Source: a virus
Reading direction: 5' to 3' (one strand)
Length of the DNA: 63,750 nt
IMG/VR virus record: IMGVR_UViG_3300045988_109082
The notes below the pieces were generated by a model, which was not told the origin of the DNA, did no database searches, and was given only the letters and a program-made list of their open reading frames with translations. Below are positions 18,102 through 58,021 of the stretch, in pieces. Positions within the stretch are counted from its first letter, which is position 1. Each line of letters opens with the position of its first letter. The translations under genes and the position numbers were made by a program.

Positions 18102-18542
18102 TCAGCCCCCGAAGCCGGGGTCGAAGCCGAGGCTGATGTGCCCGCCGCCCTGCGAACTGGTGTAGCCGGTGAGTATGGCCTTTTCGTCCTTTGCGACGAA
18201 CAATCGGGGACTGGGATTGTAGCCCGGAGTCACCGGCTGGTCATCGCGCCGCGTGTACGAGTAGTTGCCGTTCGATTCGGCATTGTACTTGTATTGGCGG
18301 GCGAGACGGAGAACCATATCGCATACCACGCCGGCGAAGTCCGATTCGCTCAGACGCCGCCTGCGCAGCCGCGCGTACACGTTCGGGCATTCGGCCATGC
18401 ACAGCAATGCGGCCTTACGGCACTGCTGCTTCACCCACGAATCGGGGAAACCGGTGTCCTTGTCGAACAGTTCCGGCTCCCCGGTCGCGTTGAGCCGCAT
18501 GTACTTCAACCAGTCGATGTTGTCGATAAGCGTCGTGGACAT
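18102..18542 (-). CDS. Head-tail connector protein
   Basis: 146 aa. First gene after the major capsid gene. Confidence 0.6.
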   Translation of the reverse strand: MSTTLIDNIDWLKYMRLNATGEPELFDKDTGFPDSWVKQQCRKAALLCMAECPNVYARLRRRRLSESDFAGVVCDMVLRLARQYKYNAESNGNYSYTRRDDQPVTPGYNPSPRLFVAKDEKAILTGYTSSQGGGHISLGFDPGFGG

Positions 18543-26880: not shown

Positions 26881-26991
26881 GATGACTCCTTACACGTAGG
26901 GGGCGGAGCCGGTGGGAGCGTGGCGAGCGAGCATTCCAACGGGGTTAATCCAAATACAGGGGATGTTGGTCCACGAGCCACCGGCTCCTAG

Positions 26992-27062
26992 AGGCAATCC
27001 CGAGAATCGAACTCGAACCTGCGCTTTACGAGAGCGCCGCTCTTCCAATGAGCTAGAATGCC
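26992..27062 (-). tRNA. tRNA-Thr (anticodon CGT)
   Basis: Hand-folded 71-nt cloverleaf. Acceptor GGCATTC/GATTGCC with one U-U mismatch. Anticodon arm GCGCT-CTCGTAA-AGCGC. T-arm TCGAG-TTCGATT-CTCGG. No encoded CCA. Confidence 0.8.
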
Positions 27063-27188
27063 ATGCCTCCCACTAGGGGAGCGCTGTTCAGTTATCGCCG
27101 CACGGCATGGCATGAAGCCGCCGCCGACATCCGGCGATGACCCAAGAAGCCGTCACCGCCTGTAATCGCCTCTTCTTGAAGGCGTTGT

Positions 27189-27260
27189 GGTACCGGAGTG
27201 GACTCGAACCACCGACCCTATGACCGTAGCCATACGCTCTAGCCGCTGAGCTACCGGCAT
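27189..27260 (-). tRNA. tRNA-like gene with a one-nt-short anticodon loop (reads best as Arg-ACG)
   Basis: 72 nt. Good D-arm (GCTC-AGCGGCTA-GAGC) and T-arm (GGTGG-TTCGAGT-CCACT). Acceptor has an A1-C72 mismatch. The anticodon stem TATGG/TCATA encloses only 6 nt (CTACGG). Confidence 0.55.
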
Positions 27261-27262
27261 CG

Positions 27263-27333
27263 CATACCCGGTGAGAATCGAACTCACGTCACCGGTTTTG
27301 GAGACCGGTACTCTACCATTGAGCTACGGGCAT
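27263..27333 (-). tRNA. tRNA-Trp (anticodon CCA)
   Basis: 71-nt cloverleaf. Acceptor ATGCCCG/CGGGTAT. Anticodon arm CCGGT-CTCCAAA-ACCGG. T-arm GTGAG-TTCGATT-CTCAC. Confidence 0.85.
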
Positions 27334-27600
27334 ATAGGGATAGTCGAACCCCCACGACAGTCAGGGCCTTGACCAGCCTCACCGACCATCTCGCGGATGA
27401 TGCAAGATTTGCACTTGCGAACCTTTTACGGTTTACGGCCTAGCAAGCCGCCGCATTCGTCTACTCTGCCAATCATCCACGGCCACGCCCCCGGTCCAAG
27501 AAAACAACACCAATACAAAACGGAATCCCAGAGAACTCGACCTTACAAATCCTCGTAAAACTGTTTTGACGGTTCGGTTTTCAAAAAAGGCGTGGCCTAG

Positions 27601-27674
27601 TCGTGAGAGAGGGAATCGAACCCACAACACACCGGGTTTGAGCCGGCGTCCTCTACCAATTGGGATATCTCACG
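27601..27674 (-). tRNA. tRNA with anticodon CAA on a class-I (short variable loop) body
   Basis: 74 nt. Acceptor CGTGAGA/TCTCACG, A73. Anticodon arm GCCGG-CTCAAAC-CCGGT. 5-nt variable region. T-arm GTGGG-TTCGATT-CCCTC with one mismatch. Confidence 0.6.
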
Positions 27675-54068: not shown

Positions 54069-54330
54069 GAGAACCCCTCGACTGCATGGACAATTGTTCC
54101 TCGCGTTCCATCAGGTGACTGTGACGCCAAGTACGCGACTTACCCTGCTTGTGAGAGGCCTCCGCATAATCGGCCACATGGTCACGGCCAACGTCTCCCA
54201 CGACCTTCGAGGCCTCGTTCCAATCCGAGTACACGCGATCGTTCACGGCCACATACTTGTCCGCGAGATAACGGACGCAATCACCGAGATAACGGATGGC
54301 TTTGGCGATGGAGTTGAAATCAGATGCCAT
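54052..54330 (-). CDS. Hypothetical protein
   Basis: 92 aa from MASDFNSIAK behind ACGGAGGAC. The longer ORF-track version would run through the tRNA-like RNA. Confidence 0.55.
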   Translation of the reverse strand: MASDFNSIAKAIRYLGDCVRYLADKYVAVNDRVYSDWNEASKVVGDVGRDHVADYAEASHKQGKSRTWRHSHLMEREEQLSMQSRGSHVDPE

Positions 54331-54504
54331 CAGTCGGCGTCCTCCGTGTTGAGTAGTCTCATACGGTCGAATGGGGTGAGTTCCATGATTGTTTCCCTTC
54401 ACTGGGCTTGATTGTTTGGTTGTCCTTCTGCGCCGGTGCTGACACGTCCGAAAACCCTTGTATTGGTTTTCCGACGCAGGACGCGAAGGGGTTAAATTTT
54501 CTGA

Positions 54505-54592
54505 GCGCCAAGCCGGGAGTCGAACCCGGTGCACCTTGGAGAAGTCCATGACCATTGGAAGGCTTCGTAGGTGCGGCACCATGCGCTTGGCT
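54505..54592 (-). ncRNA. tRNA-like element TL1 (acceptor plus T-arm, non-cloverleaf core)
   Basis: 88 nt. Acceptor AGCCAAG/CTTGGCG (6 of 7 pairs). Perfect T-arm CCGGG-TTCGACT-CCCGG. Core is a GCA-tgg-TGC mini-hairpin plus a long interrupted arm capped by ATGGTCA. Confidence 0.5.
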
Positions 54593-54639
54593 GCCACCGG
54601 ACGAGGAAGTAAAAGAATAAAGAACCCCGCCCGGAAGAA

Positions 54640-55539
54640 TCATCTGGGTTGGATGAGGGTGTTGGAGCCCTCGGGTGTGACAATCAGCTGGTCGGCGTTC
54701 TTCAAAGCGTCGATGTAATGCTGCCGGAGCACGTTGTCGGTCAGGGAATCGTTCAGCACCTTGTTCGCGTCGGCCTCGCCCTGCGCCTTGATGCGCTTCG
54801 TCTCGGCCTCGACCTTCGCGGTCTCCTGCTCGTTCTTCGCCTTCTGCTTGGCGACCTCGGCGGCTTGGGCCTGCGCGTAGCTGTCGGTGATGGACTTCGG
54901 GTAGCGGATGTCTTGCACGGACACCTGTTCGACGGTCAGGCCGATGCTCTTCCATTTCGAGGTGAGCGCGTCCTGCACGGCCTTCGTGTACTTGCCACGG
55001 TCGGTGAGCATCGTGATCGTGTCGAACTTGCCGGAGGTTTCACGGGCCACGCTGCGCAGGTCGTTGCCGATGTAGTTCTGCGTGAACGTGGTCTGCTTGC
55101 CGTATTCCGAGTAGAGCATTTCGGCGGCGGACGGTTCGAGCGAATAGTTGACCTGAATGTCGATGTTCGCGCTGGCACCGCTACGGTCGTTGACCGTGAT
55201 CTCCTTGCCTTCCGCGCTGCCGCCGTCGTACTTGTAGTCGGTGTCCTTGAAGAAGTTGATGAGGTTGTTGCGCGTATCGTATTTGATGACCGACTGCCAC
55301 GGCGCCTTCGCATGGAAGCCCGCGTTCTCCGCATGACCGGCGACGGAGCCGCCCATGTTGCGGATGACGGCCACCTCGCCTACGTCCAGCGAGTATAGGC
55401 ATGCCGGAATCATCAACAGTGCGGCGACGATGATGGGAATGAAGCCGAAACCGGCTCCGTCGCCACCGTTGGCGAGTGCGACGGCTATCATGCCGACTCC
55501 GATGAGCAGGAGTATTACGGCGAGTATGAACCAGATCAT
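54640..55539 (-). CDS. SPFH / band-7 (prohibitin-homology) membrane protein
   Basis: 299 aa from MIWFILAVILLLIG behind GAAAGGAAC. Two N-terminal TM segments, then VGEVAVIRNMGG...FHAKAPWQSV...DIRYP and a coiled-coil AQAQAAEVAKQKAKNEQE. Confidence 0.8.
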   Translation of the reverse strand: MIWFILAVILLLIGVGMIAVALANGGDGAGFGFIPIIVAALLMIPACLYSLDVGEVAVIRNMGGSVAGHAENAGFHAKAPWQSVIKYDTRNNLINFFKDTDYKYDGGSAEGKEITVNDRSGASANIDIQVNYSLEPSAAEMLYSEYGKQTTFTQNYIGNDLRSVARETSGKFDTITMLTDRGKYTKAVQDALTSKWKSIGLTVEQVSVQDIRYPKSITDSYAQAQAAEVAKQKAKNEQETAKVEAETKRIKAQGEADANKVLNDSLTDNVLRQHYIDALKNADQLIVTPEGSNTLIQPR

Positions 55540-55766
55540 TTTTGTGTTCCTTTCGACAATGCGAACGAGAGCATGACGGGCGAACAGCACATGAAGCCTG
55601 CGAGAATGCTCCACGGGCCCGCATAGGGTTGCAGTGAGAGAATCAGGAACCCGGTCGCCGCCAACGTCAGACAAGTGATTGTCTTCGTGTTCTCATGCCG
55701 GTGCCGGCGTTCATCAGGTGAATGCTGCCAGCCGGAGCAGTGAGCCCCATACGTTTTCCTGTTCAT
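55536..55766 (-). CDS. Small two-TM membrane protein, translationally coupled to the SPFH gene
   Basis: 76 aa from MNRKTYG behind GGAAAGGA. ATGA overlap with the SPFH start. Confidence 0.55.
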   Translation of the reverse strand: MNRKTYGAHCSGWQHSPDERRHRHENTKTITCLTLAATGFLILSLQPYAGPWSILAGFMCCSPVMLSFALSKGTQK

Positions 55767-55783
55767 GACATGTCCTTTCCGCG

Positions 55784-55912
55784 TGGCCGGACTCGGATTC
55801 GAACCGAGAACGTCCTTGCCGCCACCGTGTTTCTGGTTTCTGAGAGATGGATGACGAGTCCTATGGTGTGGCGGCGATGGTGCGTGTCCAGACACCCCGA
55901 AGGGTTCCGGCC
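55784..55912 (-). ncRNA. tRNA-like element TL2 (perfect acceptor plus T-arm with ~95-nt expanded core)
   Basis: 129 nt. Acceptor GGCCGGA/TCCGGCC (7 of 7 pairs), A73. T-arm CTCGG-TTCGAAT-CCGAG. ACCC-UUCG-GGGU hairpin. 8-bp stem GCCGCCAC/GUGGCGGC with a ~42-nt loop. Confidence 0.5.
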
Positions 55913-55999
55913 GATGGTTGCCGCAGCAGATCGCAGTATGGTATTTATTTGCCTGTAGTCGATAGGTGGATAAAAAACGACCCACTGCGGCAAGACTTG

Positions 56000-56500
56000 T
56001 TAATTTCTTGACAGCACATCCGTGCAGGAGCGAAGCCTTCTCAGGTAGTCCGCTCTGCGGGCGGCTTCTCTCAGCCAGTCTTTCTTGACTTCTATCGGGT
56101 TGAGGGAGGGGCTTGAAATACTCACGTAATCGCATCCGCAGTCGTAGACCATTCCTTTGCCGACGATCTCTACAAGCGTCGGACGCTTATTGCAGATGGG
56201 GCATTCGGGAAGAGGTGCGTCCAGTGTTTTCTTAGACCGGTCCGCCAACTCATTCCAATGGTCGGCAACGTCGGCCTTATTACAGTAATTGACGCTCAAT
56301 CCGGAAGGACGCTTGGGATAATCGCAGTCGATGCACCGGCAATTCCAGAACCTGGTGCTGGCACCGCTTCCGAGCATTGAGCATCCGGCGCAGTAGACCG
56401 ATGGGGTCTTGCCGCAGATGGGGCATGGCTTGATCTCCGGTACGGGTGGCTCTTCATACAGGTTTTCCGGCTCTTCGGAACGTTTGTTGAAACCAAACAT
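56000..56500 (-). CDS. Tandem Lar-like zinc-ribbon protein
   Basis: 166 aa. CPICGK...ADHWNE and CPICNK...KKDWLREA repeats. Confidence 0.55.
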   Translation of the reverse strand: MFGFNKRSEEPENLYEEPPVPEIKPCPICGKTPSVYCAGCSMLGSGASTRFWNCRCIDCDYPKRPSGLSVNYCNKADVADHWNELADRSKKTLDAPLPECPICNKRPTLVEIVGKGMVYDCGCDYVSISSPSLNPIEVKKDWLREAARRADYLRRLRSCTDVLSRN

Positions 56501-57234: not shown

Positions 57235-57633
57235 ATGGCTAATCCAAATGATTTCCGCGAAATGTCTGCGTTCGCCTTGGCATTTGCGACGGAGTATAAA
57301 AAGTACATGAAGGCGCACAAGGTAAGGCAGCGTCAGATTGCTGAATACCTCGGTTTCACCGAAGCGTATGTCAGCGAAAGGGTCAATGGCAAAAGGGCCA
57401 TCGACACCAACGACGTAGATGCTCTTGCCACATTGTCGGGCACCACTGGCCGTTCGCTGATGATCGAACTGGCTCGCCTCACCAAGGAAACCTTGCGCCA
57501 GCCGGTATCCGAGACAGCCTCGGTGGCGTCCCAGCTTGAAAAGGTCATGGGCAAGAAAATCGAGATCGAGAGAGCGGCCTATAAGGATAAGAACAAGCAA
57601 GCGGAGTCTGGTCGCGGTGAAGACTTGGACTGA
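57235..57633 (+). CDS. CI-like repressor (XRE HTH)
   Basis: 132 aa. RQRQIAEYLGFTEAYVSERVNGKR is HTH-like. Followed by an ImmA-like peptidase gene. Confidence 0.75.
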   Translation: MANPNDFREMSAFALAFATEYKKYMKAHKVRQRQIAEYLGFTEAYVSERVNGKRAIDTNDVDALATLSGTTGRSLMIELARLTKETLRQPVSETASVASQLEKVMGKKIEIERAAYKDKNKQAESGRGEDLD

Positions 57634-58021
57634 CCTCACCCTTGAGGCACGTCACGTGGGAGTCCTCATAGAGGATAAGACATTCGATGGTTCGCAGTGC
57701 GGGGAATACGACCCAGTATCGCGTACCGCGTTCATAGACCCCACCATGAGCATGGAGCAGCTGGTATGCACGTTGCAGCATGAGCTTATCCATGCCAAGC
57801 ACTTCGATGACGGACTCAGACTATTGAGCCGCGAGAAGGAAGAGCGCCTGACGCGCAAGGAAACCGCATTGGCGTTGATAAACCCCGTGGACTACATGCA
57901 CGCCGAAGACCTGTACGGGGGAGAACCCTACGCGATGGCACAGGAACTCGGCATCACCGTCAGCGTCCTGCAGGATTACCGGCATTGGTTGCATGACAAT
58001 TTATCCACCAGAGCCGCCTGA
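57617..58021 (+). CDS. ImmA/IrrE-family metallopeptidase (anti-repressor protease)
   Basis: 134 aa from GTG. HEXXH motif present (LQHELIHAKH). Start uncertain. Confidence 0.7.
   Translation: MKTWTDLTLEARHVGVLIEDKTFDGSQCGEYDPVSRTAFIDPTMSMEQLVCTLQHELIHAKHFDDGLRLLSREKEERLTRKETALALINPVDYMHAEDLYGGEPYAMAQELGITVSVLQDYRHWLHDNLSTRAA

What the first reader, a model, noticed from the sequence alone, without database searches (positions are those of the whole stretch)
55784..55912. Expanded tRNA-like RNA (TL2) immediately upstream of the small-TM/SPFH operon
SEEN on the minus strand: a perfect 7-bp acceptor stem (GGCCGGA...TCCGGCC) with A at the discriminator position. A canonical T-arm (CTCGG-TTCGAAT-CCGAG). 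A D-position hairpin with a UUCG tetraloop (ACCC-UUCG-GGGU). The anticodon and variable region is replaced by ~75 nt containing an 8-bp stem (GCCGCCAC/GUGGCGGC) with a ~42-nt loop. Within that loop is a 3-bp hairpin with a 7-nt loop CUCGUCA. The total is 129 nt, in an intergenic gap, ending 18 nt before the start codon of the small TM gene. It is too long for a tRNA, too short for tmRNA or a group I intron, and I could not fold it as a cloverleaf. INFERENCE: options include an RNase P/Z processing signal that punctuates the mRNA, a tRNA mimic or decoy, or a Y-RNA/tmRNA-like module.
Basis: partly seen in the sequence, partly recalled or inferred. Interest (0 to 1): 0.65.

Follow-up and report, generated by a model that had tools for sequence, protein, structure and literature searches.

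The report
Phage tRNA-like RNA punctuating an operon
A Bifidobacterium longum prophage carries a conserved RNA that copies only the top half of a tRNA (acceptor stem plus T-arm), always just upstream of a small membrane-protein gene and usually paired with a second tRNA-like RNA downstream; it most likely lets the host's tRNA-processing enzymes cut that gene's message out of a longer transcript.

Summary
At window 55912..55784 (minus strand) a perfect 7-bp acceptor stem abuts a 5-bp T-stem with a UUCGAAU loop. This combination is expected about 0.1 times per shuffled window.

ARAGORN and Rfam 15 call nothing there, so it is neither a tRNA nor a tmRNA. Four diverged subtypes exist in B. longum-group prophages. 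They keep the acceptor stem (98% paired) and the T-stem (100% paired, 4 of 5 pairs changed on both sides, G53-C61 invariant). They also keep a hairpin after the acceptor strand, a GGA.ACG junction motif and a long stem closing a variable loop.

All 75 viral and 55 metagenome loci with the small membrane-protein gene carry the element 3-8 nt before its Shine-Dalgarno. SPFH is optional cargo. A covariation-supported hairpin (P0) sits 5 nt upstream. A second hairpin plus tRNA-like element (TL1) closes the cassette.

Best reading (about 0.45): RNase P/RNase Z processing signals, like plant-mitochondrial t-elements or MALAT1-mascRNA, that excise the cassette mRNA and leave hairpin-protected 3' ends. 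No transcript data were available. I class it as a new RNA family and a new variant of a known kind.

The parts
55918..55993 (-). P0: long hairpin just 5' of TL2. The arms are 55993-55978 and 55933-55918 (16 bp with G.U pairs), enclosing a conserved loop of about 44 nt. It starts 6 nt after the stop codon of the upstream gene.
   Evidence: Seen. Alignment A6: 95% paired, 6 pairs changed on both sides, slid controls 20-57%. The G.U pairs (columns 11-79 and 13-77) would be C.A on the other strand, so this is a helix of the gene-sense RNA.
55913..55917 (-). 5-nt linker CCAUC between P0 and G1 of TL2. The inferred RNase P cut lies between 55913 and 55912.
   Evidence: The linker is conserved as CCAUC, CCAUU or CCAAU in all subtypes. 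The cleavage site is inferred, not shown.
55784..55912 (-). TL2: the 129-nt tRNA-like element of the finding.
   Evidence: The covariance model R1 scores it 137.9 bits, and no other copy exists in the window.
55906..55912 (-). Acceptor stem, 5' strand (GGCCGGA).
   Evidence: Pairs with 55791-55785. Pairs 5 and 7 change on both sides between subtypes (G-C/C-G/U-A and A-U/U-A/G-C).
55894..55905 (-). Hairpin P2 (ACCC-UUCG-GGGU), directly after the acceptor 5' strand.
   Evidence: Every subtype has a hairpin here with a different sequence: CCCU-UGGCGAUU-AGGG (b), CCCCAC-GCCGACUA-GUGGGG (c), CCC-GUAA-GGG (d), and a CUCG loop in L147. The tools' column alignments do not capture the register, so this was judged by eye.
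55883..55889 (-). Junction motif GGACACG (GGA.ACG). It is a candidate stand-in for the D-loop G18-G19 that would dock on the T-loop to form the tRNA elbow.
   Evidence: The motif is invariant across subtypes: a UCUGGACACG, d CCUGGACACG, c UCUGGAAACG, b AUCGGAGACG. The elbow role is an inference.
55868..55877 (-). Long stem P3, 5' strand.
Evidence: Pairs with 55826-55818. It is 85-87% paired in A3/A4, with two pairs changed on both sides.
55827..55867 (-). Variable loop of P3.
   Evidence: Whole segments are replaced, and indels of 5, 8 and 15 nt occur among close relatives whose SPFH and TL1 are identical. No conserved antisense target was found.
55818..55826 (-). Long stem P3, 3' strand.
   Evidence: See the 5' strand entry.
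55792..55808 (-). T-arm CUCGG-UUCGAAU-CCGAG.
   Evidence: 100% paired. 4 of 5 pairs change on both sides (GGAAG/CUUCC, GAGAG/CUCUC, GGGAG/CUUCC). G53-C61 is invariant, and the loop is always U[UC]CRAAU.
55784..55791 (-). Acceptor stem 3' strand (UCCGGCC) plus discriminator A55784. No CCA is encoded. The inferred RNase Z-type cut follows 55784.
   Evidence: The discriminator is A in subtypes a-c and U in d, and is always followed by C and never by CCA. Cleavage is inferred.
55536..55780 (-). Shine-Dalgarno GGAAAGGA (55780-55773) and the 76-aa small two-helix membrane-protein gene (ATG 55766 to stop 55536).
   Evidence: The protein family is narrow, about 20 clusters, with the named members from B. 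longum. TL2 is present upstream in 75 of 75 viral loci and 55 of 55 metagenome loci.
54640..55539 (-). SPFH/Band 7 gene, optional cargo inside the cassette.
   Evidence: Pfam Band_7, E = 7e-29. It is absent from many loci that keep TL2, the small-TM gene and TL1.
54597..54634 (-). P0': 10-bp hairpin (CCGGGCGGGG/CCUCGUCCGG, with 2 G.U pairs) with a U-rich loop and no U-tract. It lies 5 nt before TL1.
   Evidence: The stem is kept with other sequences in other loci (CCGGGCGG/CCGCCCGG, CCGGCCGGGG/CCCCGGCCGG).
54505..54592 (-). TL1: the second non-canonical tRNA-like element, closing the cassette.
   Evidence: Alignment A5: acceptor 100% paired with 3 pairs changed on both sides; T-stem 97% paired with 2 such pairs. 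It resembles TL2 only as much as real tRNAs do (16.8 bits against 14-15 bits).

Best explanation
TL2 is a cis-acting tRNA-like processing signal inside the early (cro-side) transcript of a Bifidobacterium longum temperate phage.

What it keeps from a tRNA is what the tRNA end-processing enzymes read:
- a 7-bp acceptor stem stacked on a 5-bp T-stem;
- a canonical T-loop;
- probably an elbow contact, made by the invariant GGA.ACG junction.
The D and anticodon half is replaced by a hairpin and a long stem with a variable loop.

Proposed mechanism (inferred, not shown):
- Host RNase P cuts 5' of G55912. The upstream mRNA then ends in the P0 hairpin plus CCAUC, a protected 3' end.
- An RNase Z-type cut after the discriminator (A55784, with no encoded CCA) releases the small membrane-protein mRNA, with or without SPFH. 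Its leader is only 17 nt and starts 3 nt before the Shine-Dalgarno.
- The same pair of cuts at P0'-TL1 gives that mRNA a hairpin-protected 3' end and frees the downstream recombination-gene message.

The net effect is a cassette mRNA whose abundance and lifetime are uncoupled from the rest of the operon.
For: Shown:
- The tRNA top half is present and rare by chance.
- It is maintained by compensatory change across four subtypes, while the rest of the element varies.
- G53-C61, the T-loop and the GGA.ACG junction are invariant.
- No CCA is encoded in TL2, in TL1 or in the phage's own tRNAs.
- TL2 always ends 3-8 nt before the Shine-Dalgarno of the small-TM gene, in 130 of 130 loci.
- A long hairpin without a U-tract ends 5 nt before TL2 and another ends 5 nt before TL1. 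Compensatory changes keep P0. Loci with different stem sequences keep P0'.
- P0 has strand-specific G.U pairs, so the RNA starts upstream of it. This implies read-through from the preceding gene.
- No sigma-70-like promoter or intrinsic terminator is found on this strand around the cassette.
- Cargo changes inside the TL2...TL1 frame while the frame stays.

From the literature:
- Non-canonical tRNA-like 't-elements' with the GGTTCRANYCC motif direct RNase P and RNase Z cuts that form mRNA ends in plant mitochondria (PMC1920247).
- Bacterial RNase P also cleaves phage C4 RNA, phi80 M3 RNA and operon mRNAs (PMC11143913).
Against: - There are no transcript ends, Northern blots or in vitro cleavage data. 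Every cleavage step is inferred.
- The conserved P3 stem, the semi-conserved loop core and the conserved P0 loop are more than a bare processing signal needs, so the element may do something further.
- The discriminator and the -1 nucleotide give no positive evidence for RNase P.
- A weak promoter inside the P0 loop (TCGACT-16-CATACT, 8 of 12 matches) cannot be fully excluded in subtype a.
- The family is confined to one phage group, so the evolutionary depth is modest. The shuffle control can overstate significance for related sequences.
Confidence: 0.45

Rival explanations
1. Trans-acting tRNA mimic. TL2 (and TL1) are the products that matter. Once excised and CCA-tailed, these anticodon-less tRNA look-alikes would bind or titrate a factor that reads the tRNA top half. 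Candidates are an acceptor-end-directed toxin or defence enzyme, EF-Tu, a modification enzyme, or a phage regulator.
For: - The P3 stem, the GGA.ACG junction and a semi-conserved loop core are kept beyond what a cleavage signal needs.
- The central loop is unusually variable among otherwise identical loci. This could reflect an arms race.
- Phage RNAs excised by RNase P that act in trans are known, for example P1/P7 C4 RNA (PMC11143913).
Against: - No conserved complementarity to any nearby target was found.
- The discriminator is not conserved (A or U), which argues against a fixed aminoacylation identity.
- The strict position 3-8 nt before one gene's Shine-Dalgarno is not explained by a purely trans role.
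- The loop variation tracks mosaic joints with different upstream genes.
Confidence: 0.2
2. Cis-regulatory leader. P0 plus TL2 form a structured 5' leader of about 215 nt that controls translation or stability of the small membrane protein. That protein may be toxic or an exclusion factor. Control would work by protein or ligand binding, or by an activation-by-processing step as in type I toxin mRNAs, without being a general punctuation device.
For: - Linkage to the small-TM gene is absolute, at a fixed short distance from its Shine-Dalgarno.
- The P0 loop sequence is conserved.
- The small hairpin loop ACUCCU in subtypes b and c resembles an anti-Shine-Dalgarno.
Against: - The anti-Shine-Dalgarno-like loop is absent from subtypes a and d.
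- No conserved pairing with the ribosome-binding region was found.
- This reading does not explain why a second hairpin plus tRNA-like unit follows the cassette.
- No Rfam riboswitch or leader family matches.
Confidence: 0.12
3. A working but non-canonical tRNA, tmRNA or intron-containing tRNA that takes part in translation.
For: - The acceptor stem and T-arm are perfect.
- The UCUGGA...GGAC flanks loosely recall the tmRNA tRNA-like domain.
- The phage carries other tRNAs.
Against: - ARAGORN and Rfam tRNA/tmRNA models give nothing on TL2.
- With introns allowed and thresholds lowered, ARAGORN assigns a different anticodon to each subtype.
- Pair 3-70 is C-G, and there is no conserved tag reading frame.
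- The putative anticodon-like hairpin is not conserved.
Confidence: 0.04
4. A decaying tRNA gene or a recombination scar at a module junction, with no function of its own.
For: - It sits at a mosaic joint. Two different upstream genes and several cargo sets are found around it.
Against: - Compensatory changes keep four helices across subtypes with about 55% identity.
- It is present in 130 of 130 loci.
Confidence: 0.04
5. A DNA-level element, such as a promoter-operator for lysogenic expression of the cassette or an attachment site.
For: - The P0 loop holds a conserved -10-like CATACT and a -35-like TCGACT.
- Bifidobacterial prophages use tRNA and tmRNA genes as integration sites (PMC6109161).
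Against: - The G.U pairs and compensatory changes are features of RNA, not of protein-binding DNA palindromes.
- The hexamer spacing changes from 16 to 20 nt in subtypes b-d.
- The promoter scan finds nothing on this strand.
- The element is far from the ends of the prophage.
Confidence: 0.05

Closest known systems
Plant-mitochondrial t-elements (Hanic-Joyce 1990; Forner et al. 2007, PMC1920247)
   Same: Both are non-canonical tRNA-like structures that keep the acceptor stem and the T-arm motif GGTTCRANYCC. Both are embedded in mRNA precursors next to coding regions. The t-elements act as cis signals for RNase P and RNase Z that create mRNA 5' and 3' ends.
   Different: Those are organellar and this is a bacteriophage. 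Here the elements come as a pair bracketing one cassette, each is preceded by a long hairpin, and TL2 carries an extra 75-nt stem-loop domain. Cleavage has not been shown here.
MALAT1 / MEN-beta mascRNA-type 3'-end formation (PMC8457004)
   Same: In both, a tRNA-like structure lies directly downstream of a protective RNA structure. RNase P cleavage 5' of the tRNA-like element leaves the upstream RNA with a stable, non-terminated 3' end. RNase Z releases the small tRNA-like RNA.
   Different: That system is eukaryotic and nuclear, with a triple helix rather than a hairpin. There is no sequence relationship. The function here is inferred only from the arrangement.
Phage RNAs cut out of operon leaders by RNase P: P1/P7 C4 RNA, P4 CI RNA, phi80 M3 RNA (cited in PMC11143913)
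   Same: All are phage-encoded and lie in the leader of an operon near the immunity region. All have an acceptor/T-like coaxial stack that RNase P recognises.
   Different: C4 and CI are about 77-nt antisense RNAs with loops complementary to targets downstream. No such conserved complementarity was found for TL2.
tmRNA tRNA-like domain (Rfam RF00023)
   Same: Both have a top-half-only tRNA mimic, a 'UCUGGA' segment after the 5' strand, 'GGAC' before the T-stem, and a long helix leading to a large non-tRNA domain. TL1 subtype T4 matches the tmRNA T-arm consensus at 25 bits.
   Different: TL2 has no G3.U70, no tag reading frame, no pseudoknots and a length of 129 nt against about 360 nt. The Rfam and ARAGORN tmRNA models do not report TL2.
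Bacterial Y RNAs (YrlA) with a tRNA-like domain
   Same: Both are non-coding RNAs of similar size that mimic the tRNA T-arm and elbow. Both are sometimes phage-borne.
   Different: In YrlA the 5' and 3' ends form the Ro-binding stem, and the tRNA-like part is internal. In TL2 the ends form the acceptor stem. There is no Rfam match.
tRNA genes co-transcribed with mRNAs (mitochondrial tRNA punctuation; E. coli tyrU-tufB)
   Same: In both, tRNA-shaped units inside polycistronic transcripts are excised by RNase P and 3' nucleases and so separate the neighbouring messages.
   Different: Those units are real, decoding tRNAs. TL2 and TL1 have no usable anticodon arm.

Membership tests
Canonical tRNA (Rfam RF00005 / ARAGORN) | 7-bp acceptor stem abutting a 5-bp T-stem with a T-loop U54-U55-C56-R57-A58 and G53-C61 | tested here: met
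Canonical tRNA (Rfam RF00005 / ARAGORN) | Cloverleaf with a D-arm and a 5-bp anticodon stem with a 7-nt loop, detectable by tRNA models | tested here: not met
   ARAGORN finds nothing. Rfam finds nothing at the gathering threshold or at E <= 10. The 3-bp/7-nt hairpin is not conserved.
Intron-containing tRNA | Removing an insert restores a cloverleaf with the same anticodon in all relatives | tested here: not met
   ARAGORN -i finds nothing for TL2 at the default threshold. At a lowered threshold it calls Leu, Met, Thr, Val or Ala in different subtypes.
tmRNA (RF00023) | G3.U70 alanine identity pair | tested here: not met
   Pair 3-70 is C-G in all four subtypes.
tmRNA (RF00023) | Internal tag reading frame ending in a stop codon, and pseudoknots | tested here: not met
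   There is no conserved frame or stop codon. Indels of 5, 8 and 15 nt occur in the loop.
tmRNA (RF00023) | Match to the family covariance model or to the ARAGORN tmRNA search | tested here: not met
   No hit on TL2. Only the TL1 T-arm of subtype T4 scores, at 25 bits against a gathering score of 47.
YrlA / bacterial Y RNA | The termini form the Ro-binding helix, the tRNA-like domain is internal, and the Rfam model matches | tested here: not met
   The termini form the acceptor stem. There is no Rfam match.
t-element-type processing signal (functional class) | Non-canonical tRNA-like fold with an acceptor stem and a GGTTCRANYCC T-arm, embedded in an mRNA precursor | tested here: met
   GGTTCGAATCC is present. 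The fold is supported by covariation. The element lies between genes of one strand with no promoter or terminator call. The P0 helix shows that the RNA begins upstream.
t-element-type processing signal (functional class) | The ends of the element coincide with mapped mRNA termini, and RNase P/Z cleave it | not testable with these tools
   No transcript data or enzymology were available.
C4/CI-type phage antisense RNA | Loops complementary to a target in the same operon, conserved among relatives | tested here: not met
   RNAduplex of the big loop against upstream and downstream RNA in the four subtypes gives no shared target.
Protein-coding sequence (ORF 55536-56135 runs through TL2 in frame with the small-TM gene) | Indels among relatives keep the reading frame | tested here: not met
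   Element lengths are 127, 129, 134, 137 and 144 nt.

The most novel reading that the evidence does not exclude
The two anticodon-less tRNA look-alikes are effectors, not only cut marks. After excision and CCA addition, they would act as phage-made decoys or regulators that engage host or rival-phage factors reading the tRNA acceptor/T-arm end. Examples are acceptor-end-modifying toxins of defence systems. Their hypervariable central loop would then record an arms race.
Probability: 0.15. Interest if true: 0.8.

Novelty: new variant of a known kind. Interest (0 to 1): 0.6.

Why it matters
If TL2 and TL1 are cut by RNase P and RNase Z, this would be a clear bacterial-virus case of tRNA punctuation by non-decoding tRNA mimics. 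That device is so far documented in organelles and in eukaryotic long non-coding RNAs.

It would show how a temperate phage gives an inserted cassette its own mRNA ends and stability without a promoter or terminator.

It would give annotators a rule: hairpin, then tRNA top half, between genes.

It also defines a new structured RNA family, absent from Rfam 15, in prophages of a dominant infant-gut bacterium. The prediction is easily tested by end mapping.

Tried and rejected
- Standard detectors. ARAGORN and Rfam (gathering threshold and E <= 10) give nothing on TL2. Rfam on subtypes b-d gives only a sub-threshold tmRNA T-arm match on TL1.
- INPHARED phage collection. A blastn search in 'distant' mode finds no match.
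- Genome collection scan. The pattern TCTGGACAC-N70-100-GGTYCGAATCC was too loose. The single scan was thereby spent, so distribution in isolate genomes is known only from the protein names.
- Relatives of the SPFH protein at 75% identity sit in another context, with no tRNA-like elements.
- Looking for an 'empty site' through the upstream Zn-ribbon gene failed, because every such locus carries TL2.
- Intron-containing tRNA is rejected because the anticodons are inconsistent.
- tmRNA is rejected.
- Antisense regulator is rejected for lack of a shared target. A TL2-TL1 kissing interaction was considered by eye and dropped, because TL2 and TL1 subtypes assort freely.
- TL1 as a paralogue of TL2 is rejected. 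The model built on TL2 scores TL1 no better than real tRNAs.
- Promoter inside the P0 loop: sub-threshold, and the spacing is not conserved.
- PADLOC gives nothing for the cassette proteins.
- Literature searches found no description of these elements in bifidobacterial prophages.
Full report
**1. What is in the sequence**

- The acceptor 3' strand directly abuts the T-stem. This gives the 12-bp coaxial stack of a tRNA top half.
- No CCA is encoded.
- The element lies between a 166-aa Zn-ribbon ORF (56500-56000) and a 76-aa gene for a small membrane protein (small-TM gene). The true start of that gene is ATG 55766, because the upstream ATG at 55771 is lost in some relatives.
- The Shine-Dalgarno GGAAAGGA begins 3 nt after the discriminator.

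**2. Is it more than chance?**

- A descriptor for a perfect 7-bp acceptor, an abutting 5-bp T-stem with G53-C61 and a TTCRANN loop finds only this element and the phage's real tRNAs in the 63.7-kb window. It finds 0.1 hits per shuffled window.
- With a terminal mismatch allowed, it also finds a second element, TL1, just after the SPFH gene.
- Folding energy alone is unremarkable (z = -1.5). The minimum-energy fold even mispairs the T-arm.
- The case therefore rests on comparative evidence.

**3. It is not a known RNA**

- ARAGORN finds five tRNA genes at 26991-27674 and nothing here.
- Rfam 15 finds nothing here at gathering thresholds or at E <= 10.
- With introns allowed and thresholds lowered, ARAGORN gives each subtype a different anticodon.
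- Pair 3-70 is C-G, and no conserved tag frame exists.
- An ORF that runs through the element in frame with the small-TM gene is spurious. Relatives differ by indels of 2, 5, 8 and 15 nt.

**4. Host and context**

- The neighbouring proteins are exact matches to Bifidobacterium longum prophage proteins.
- The cassette lies in the early operon on the Cro side of an immunity region. That region holds a cI-like HTH gene and an ImmA-like peptidase gene on the plus strand at 57235-58021, and a Cro-like HTH gene at 57218-56892.
- Recombination genes follow: a PD-(D/E)XK-type exonuclease (family assignment from its homologues in related loci) and an ERF-family protein.
- A simple scan finds no sigma-70-like promoter and no intrinsic terminator on this strand around the cassette.

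**5. Relatives**

- Searching viral contigs with the SPFH protein, with DNA patterns, with the downstream 92-aa gene and with the small-TM protein gave about 140 loci. A metagenome scan gave 55 more.
- Every locus with a small-TM homologue has a tRNA top-half element ending 3-8 nt before its Shine-Dalgarno. The counts are 75 of 75 viral loci and 55 of 55 metagenome loci.
- The small-TM protein family is narrow: 20 clusters, all at least 43% identical in the aligned part.
- SPFH is optional. Many loci read TL2 - small-TM gene - hairpin - TL1 with no SPFH, and one type carries other cargo.
- SPFH relatives at 75% identity sit elsewhere, without any tRNA-like element.

**6. Four subtypes and covariation**

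Besides about 30 close variants of the window type (subtype a, 127-144 nt), there are three diverged forms. These are subtype b (L433), subtype c (L432) and subtype d (L443).
- The acceptor changes from GGCCGGA/UCCGGCC to GGCCCGU/ACGGGCC, GGCCUGU/ACAGGCC and GGCCGGG/CCCGGCC.
- The T-stem changes from CUCGG/CCGAG to GGAAG/CUUCC, GAGAG/CUCUC and GGGAG/CUUCC.

Pair counts on the MAFFT alignment A3:
- The acceptor is 98% paired, with 2 pairs changed on both sides.
- The T-stem is 100% paired, with 4 of 5 pairs changed on both sides and G53-C61 invariant.
- The long stem P3 is 87% paired.
- 0 of 500 shuffles reach the observed covariation score. Partner-slid controls are 24-47% paired.
- A covariance model (R1) and its fitted alignment of 36 sequences give the same picture.

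Other conserved features:
- All subtypes have a hairpin right after the acceptor 5' strand, with different stems and loops: UUCG, CUCG, GUAA or 8 nt.
- All have an invariant junction motif GGA.ACG. I propose that it replaces the D-loop G18-G19 in forming the elbow (inference).

Features that are not conserved:
- The centre of the loop is swapped wholesale even among loci whose SPFH and TL1 are identical.
- P3 keeps pairing, but its register slips.

**7. The element is part of a larger design**

- P0. A 16-bp helix starts six nucleotides after the upstream stop codon (55993-55978 with 55933-55918). It encloses a conserved loop and ends 5 nt (CCAUC) before G1.
- P0 is 95% paired, with 6 pairs changed on both sides. 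It has G.U pairs that would be C.A on the other strand. It is therefore an RNA helix of the gene-sense transcript, and that transcript must begin upstream of it.
- P0 and TL2 travel together behind two different upstream genes.
- After the cassette the same layout recurs. A 10-bp hairpin without a U-tract (P0', 54634-54597) is followed 5 nt later by TL1 (54592-54505). TL1 is an 88-nt non-canonical tRNA-like RNA.
- TL1's acceptor and T-stems also covary.
- TL1 resembles TL2 no more than real tRNAs do (16.8 bits against 14-15 bits).

**8. Mechanism**

The conserved parts are the ones read by RNase P, RNase Z and the CCA-adding enzyme: the acceptor/T stack, the T-loop and the likely elbow. The half of a tRNA used for decoding is gone. 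The discriminator varies (A or U), and CCA is not encoded.

Each tRNA-like unit is preceded by a stable hairpin with no U-tract. Such a hairpin does not terminate transcription, but it would protect a 3' end created by a cut just downstream.

The most economical reading is tRNA punctuation.
- RNase P cuts 5' of G1, and an RNase Z-type enzyme cuts after the discriminator, at both TL2 and TL1.
- These cuts excise a small-TM mRNA, with or without SPFH. It has a 17-nt leader and a hairpin-protected 3' end.
- The upstream message also ends up hairpin-capped.

This matches plant-mitochondrial t-elements, which were found with the same GGTTCRANYCC motif (PMC1920247). It also matches the MALAT1-mascRNA arrangement (PMC8457004). 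It is consistent with the known range of bacterial RNase P substrates, including phage RNAs and operon mRNAs (PMC11143913).

None of the cleavage steps is shown here. I put this reading at about 0.45.

**9. Rivals**

- A trans-acting tRNA mimic (0.2). This would explain the extra conserved parts and the variable loop, but it has no specific support.
- A cis-regulatory leader for a possibly toxic membrane protein (0.12).
- A working tRNA or tmRNA, a decaying tRNA gene, or a DNA-level site (0.04-0.05 each). These are contradicted by the tests above.
- The first two rivals are compatible with the element also being processed.

**10. Novelty and limits**

- I found no description of these RNAs in Rfam 15 or in papers on bifidobacterial prophages.
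- The kind, a tRNA-like processing signal, is known elsewhere. A paired, hairpin-coupled version that frames a cassette in a temperate phage appears to be new.
- The family is narrow, confined to B. longum-group prophages, so covariation depth is limited to four subtypes.
- The one genome-collection scan was wasted on too loose a pattern.
- No expression data could be consulted.

Noticed in passing
window 54505-54592 (-), with hairpin 54597-54634 (-): A second non-canonical tRNA-like element (TL1, 88 nt) lies right after the SPFH stop codon and is preceded by a long hairpin. It has a 6-bp acceptor (GCCAAG/CUUGGC) with an unpaired A.G at its end, and a T-arm CCGGG-UUCGACU-CCCGG. Its acceptor and T-stems covary in relatives (A5).
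   Followed up: partly
L443 1811-1845 and L363 637-671 (TL1 subtype T4): In this TL1 subtype the T-arm and the preceding GGAC are identical to the tmRNA consensus. Rfam tmRNA scores them 25 and 21 bits against a gathering score of 47. Some bifidobacterial prophages integrate at the tmRNA gene (PMC6109161). Whether TL1 derives from tmRNA is open.
   Followed up: no
window 55918-55993 (-): The loop of hairpin P0 is itself conserved across subtypes (UUAUYCACC..GAYUACARG..CAUACU). This is more than a simple 3'-end stabiliser would need. It holds a sub-threshold promoter-like TCGACT-16-CATACT whose spacing is not conserved.
   Followed up: partly
window 54640-55539 (-) and loci L321, L302, L320, L349, L363: The SPFH/Band 7 gene is optional cargo inserted between the small-TM stop codon (overlapping ATGA) and hairpin P0'. 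Many related prophages have the frame without it, and one type carries about 1.5 kb of other genes after TL1. PADLOC has no match for any cassette protein.
   Followed up: partly
window 27187-27261 (-): One of the five phage tRNA genes is odd. ARAGORN calls it 'tRNA-???', it has a 6-nt anticodon loop (CUACGG) and an A1.C72 mismatch, yet it scores 42 bits with the Rfam tRNA model. The tRNAs are packed head to tail, and none has an encoded CCA.
   Followed up: no
window 54319-54375 (-): An 18-codon ORF (MELTPFDRMRLLNTEDAD) is the remnant of a 117-aa gene that is intact in many related loci. The window lacks about 297 nt here: the distance from TL1 to the next gene is 201 nt against 498 nt.
   Followed up: partly
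window 55827-55867 (-) compared with L001-L042: Among loci whose SPFH protein and TL1 are 100% identical, the centre of TL2 differs by block replacements and indels (80-100% identity). The variants track which gene lies upstream, so a recombination joint falls inside or next to TL2.
   Followed up: partly
window 18159-18289 (+): The relaxed top-half descriptor also hits a G.U-rich candidate inside coding DNA, on the strand opposite the genes. It is probably chance, at 0.17 expected per shuffle.
   Followed up: no
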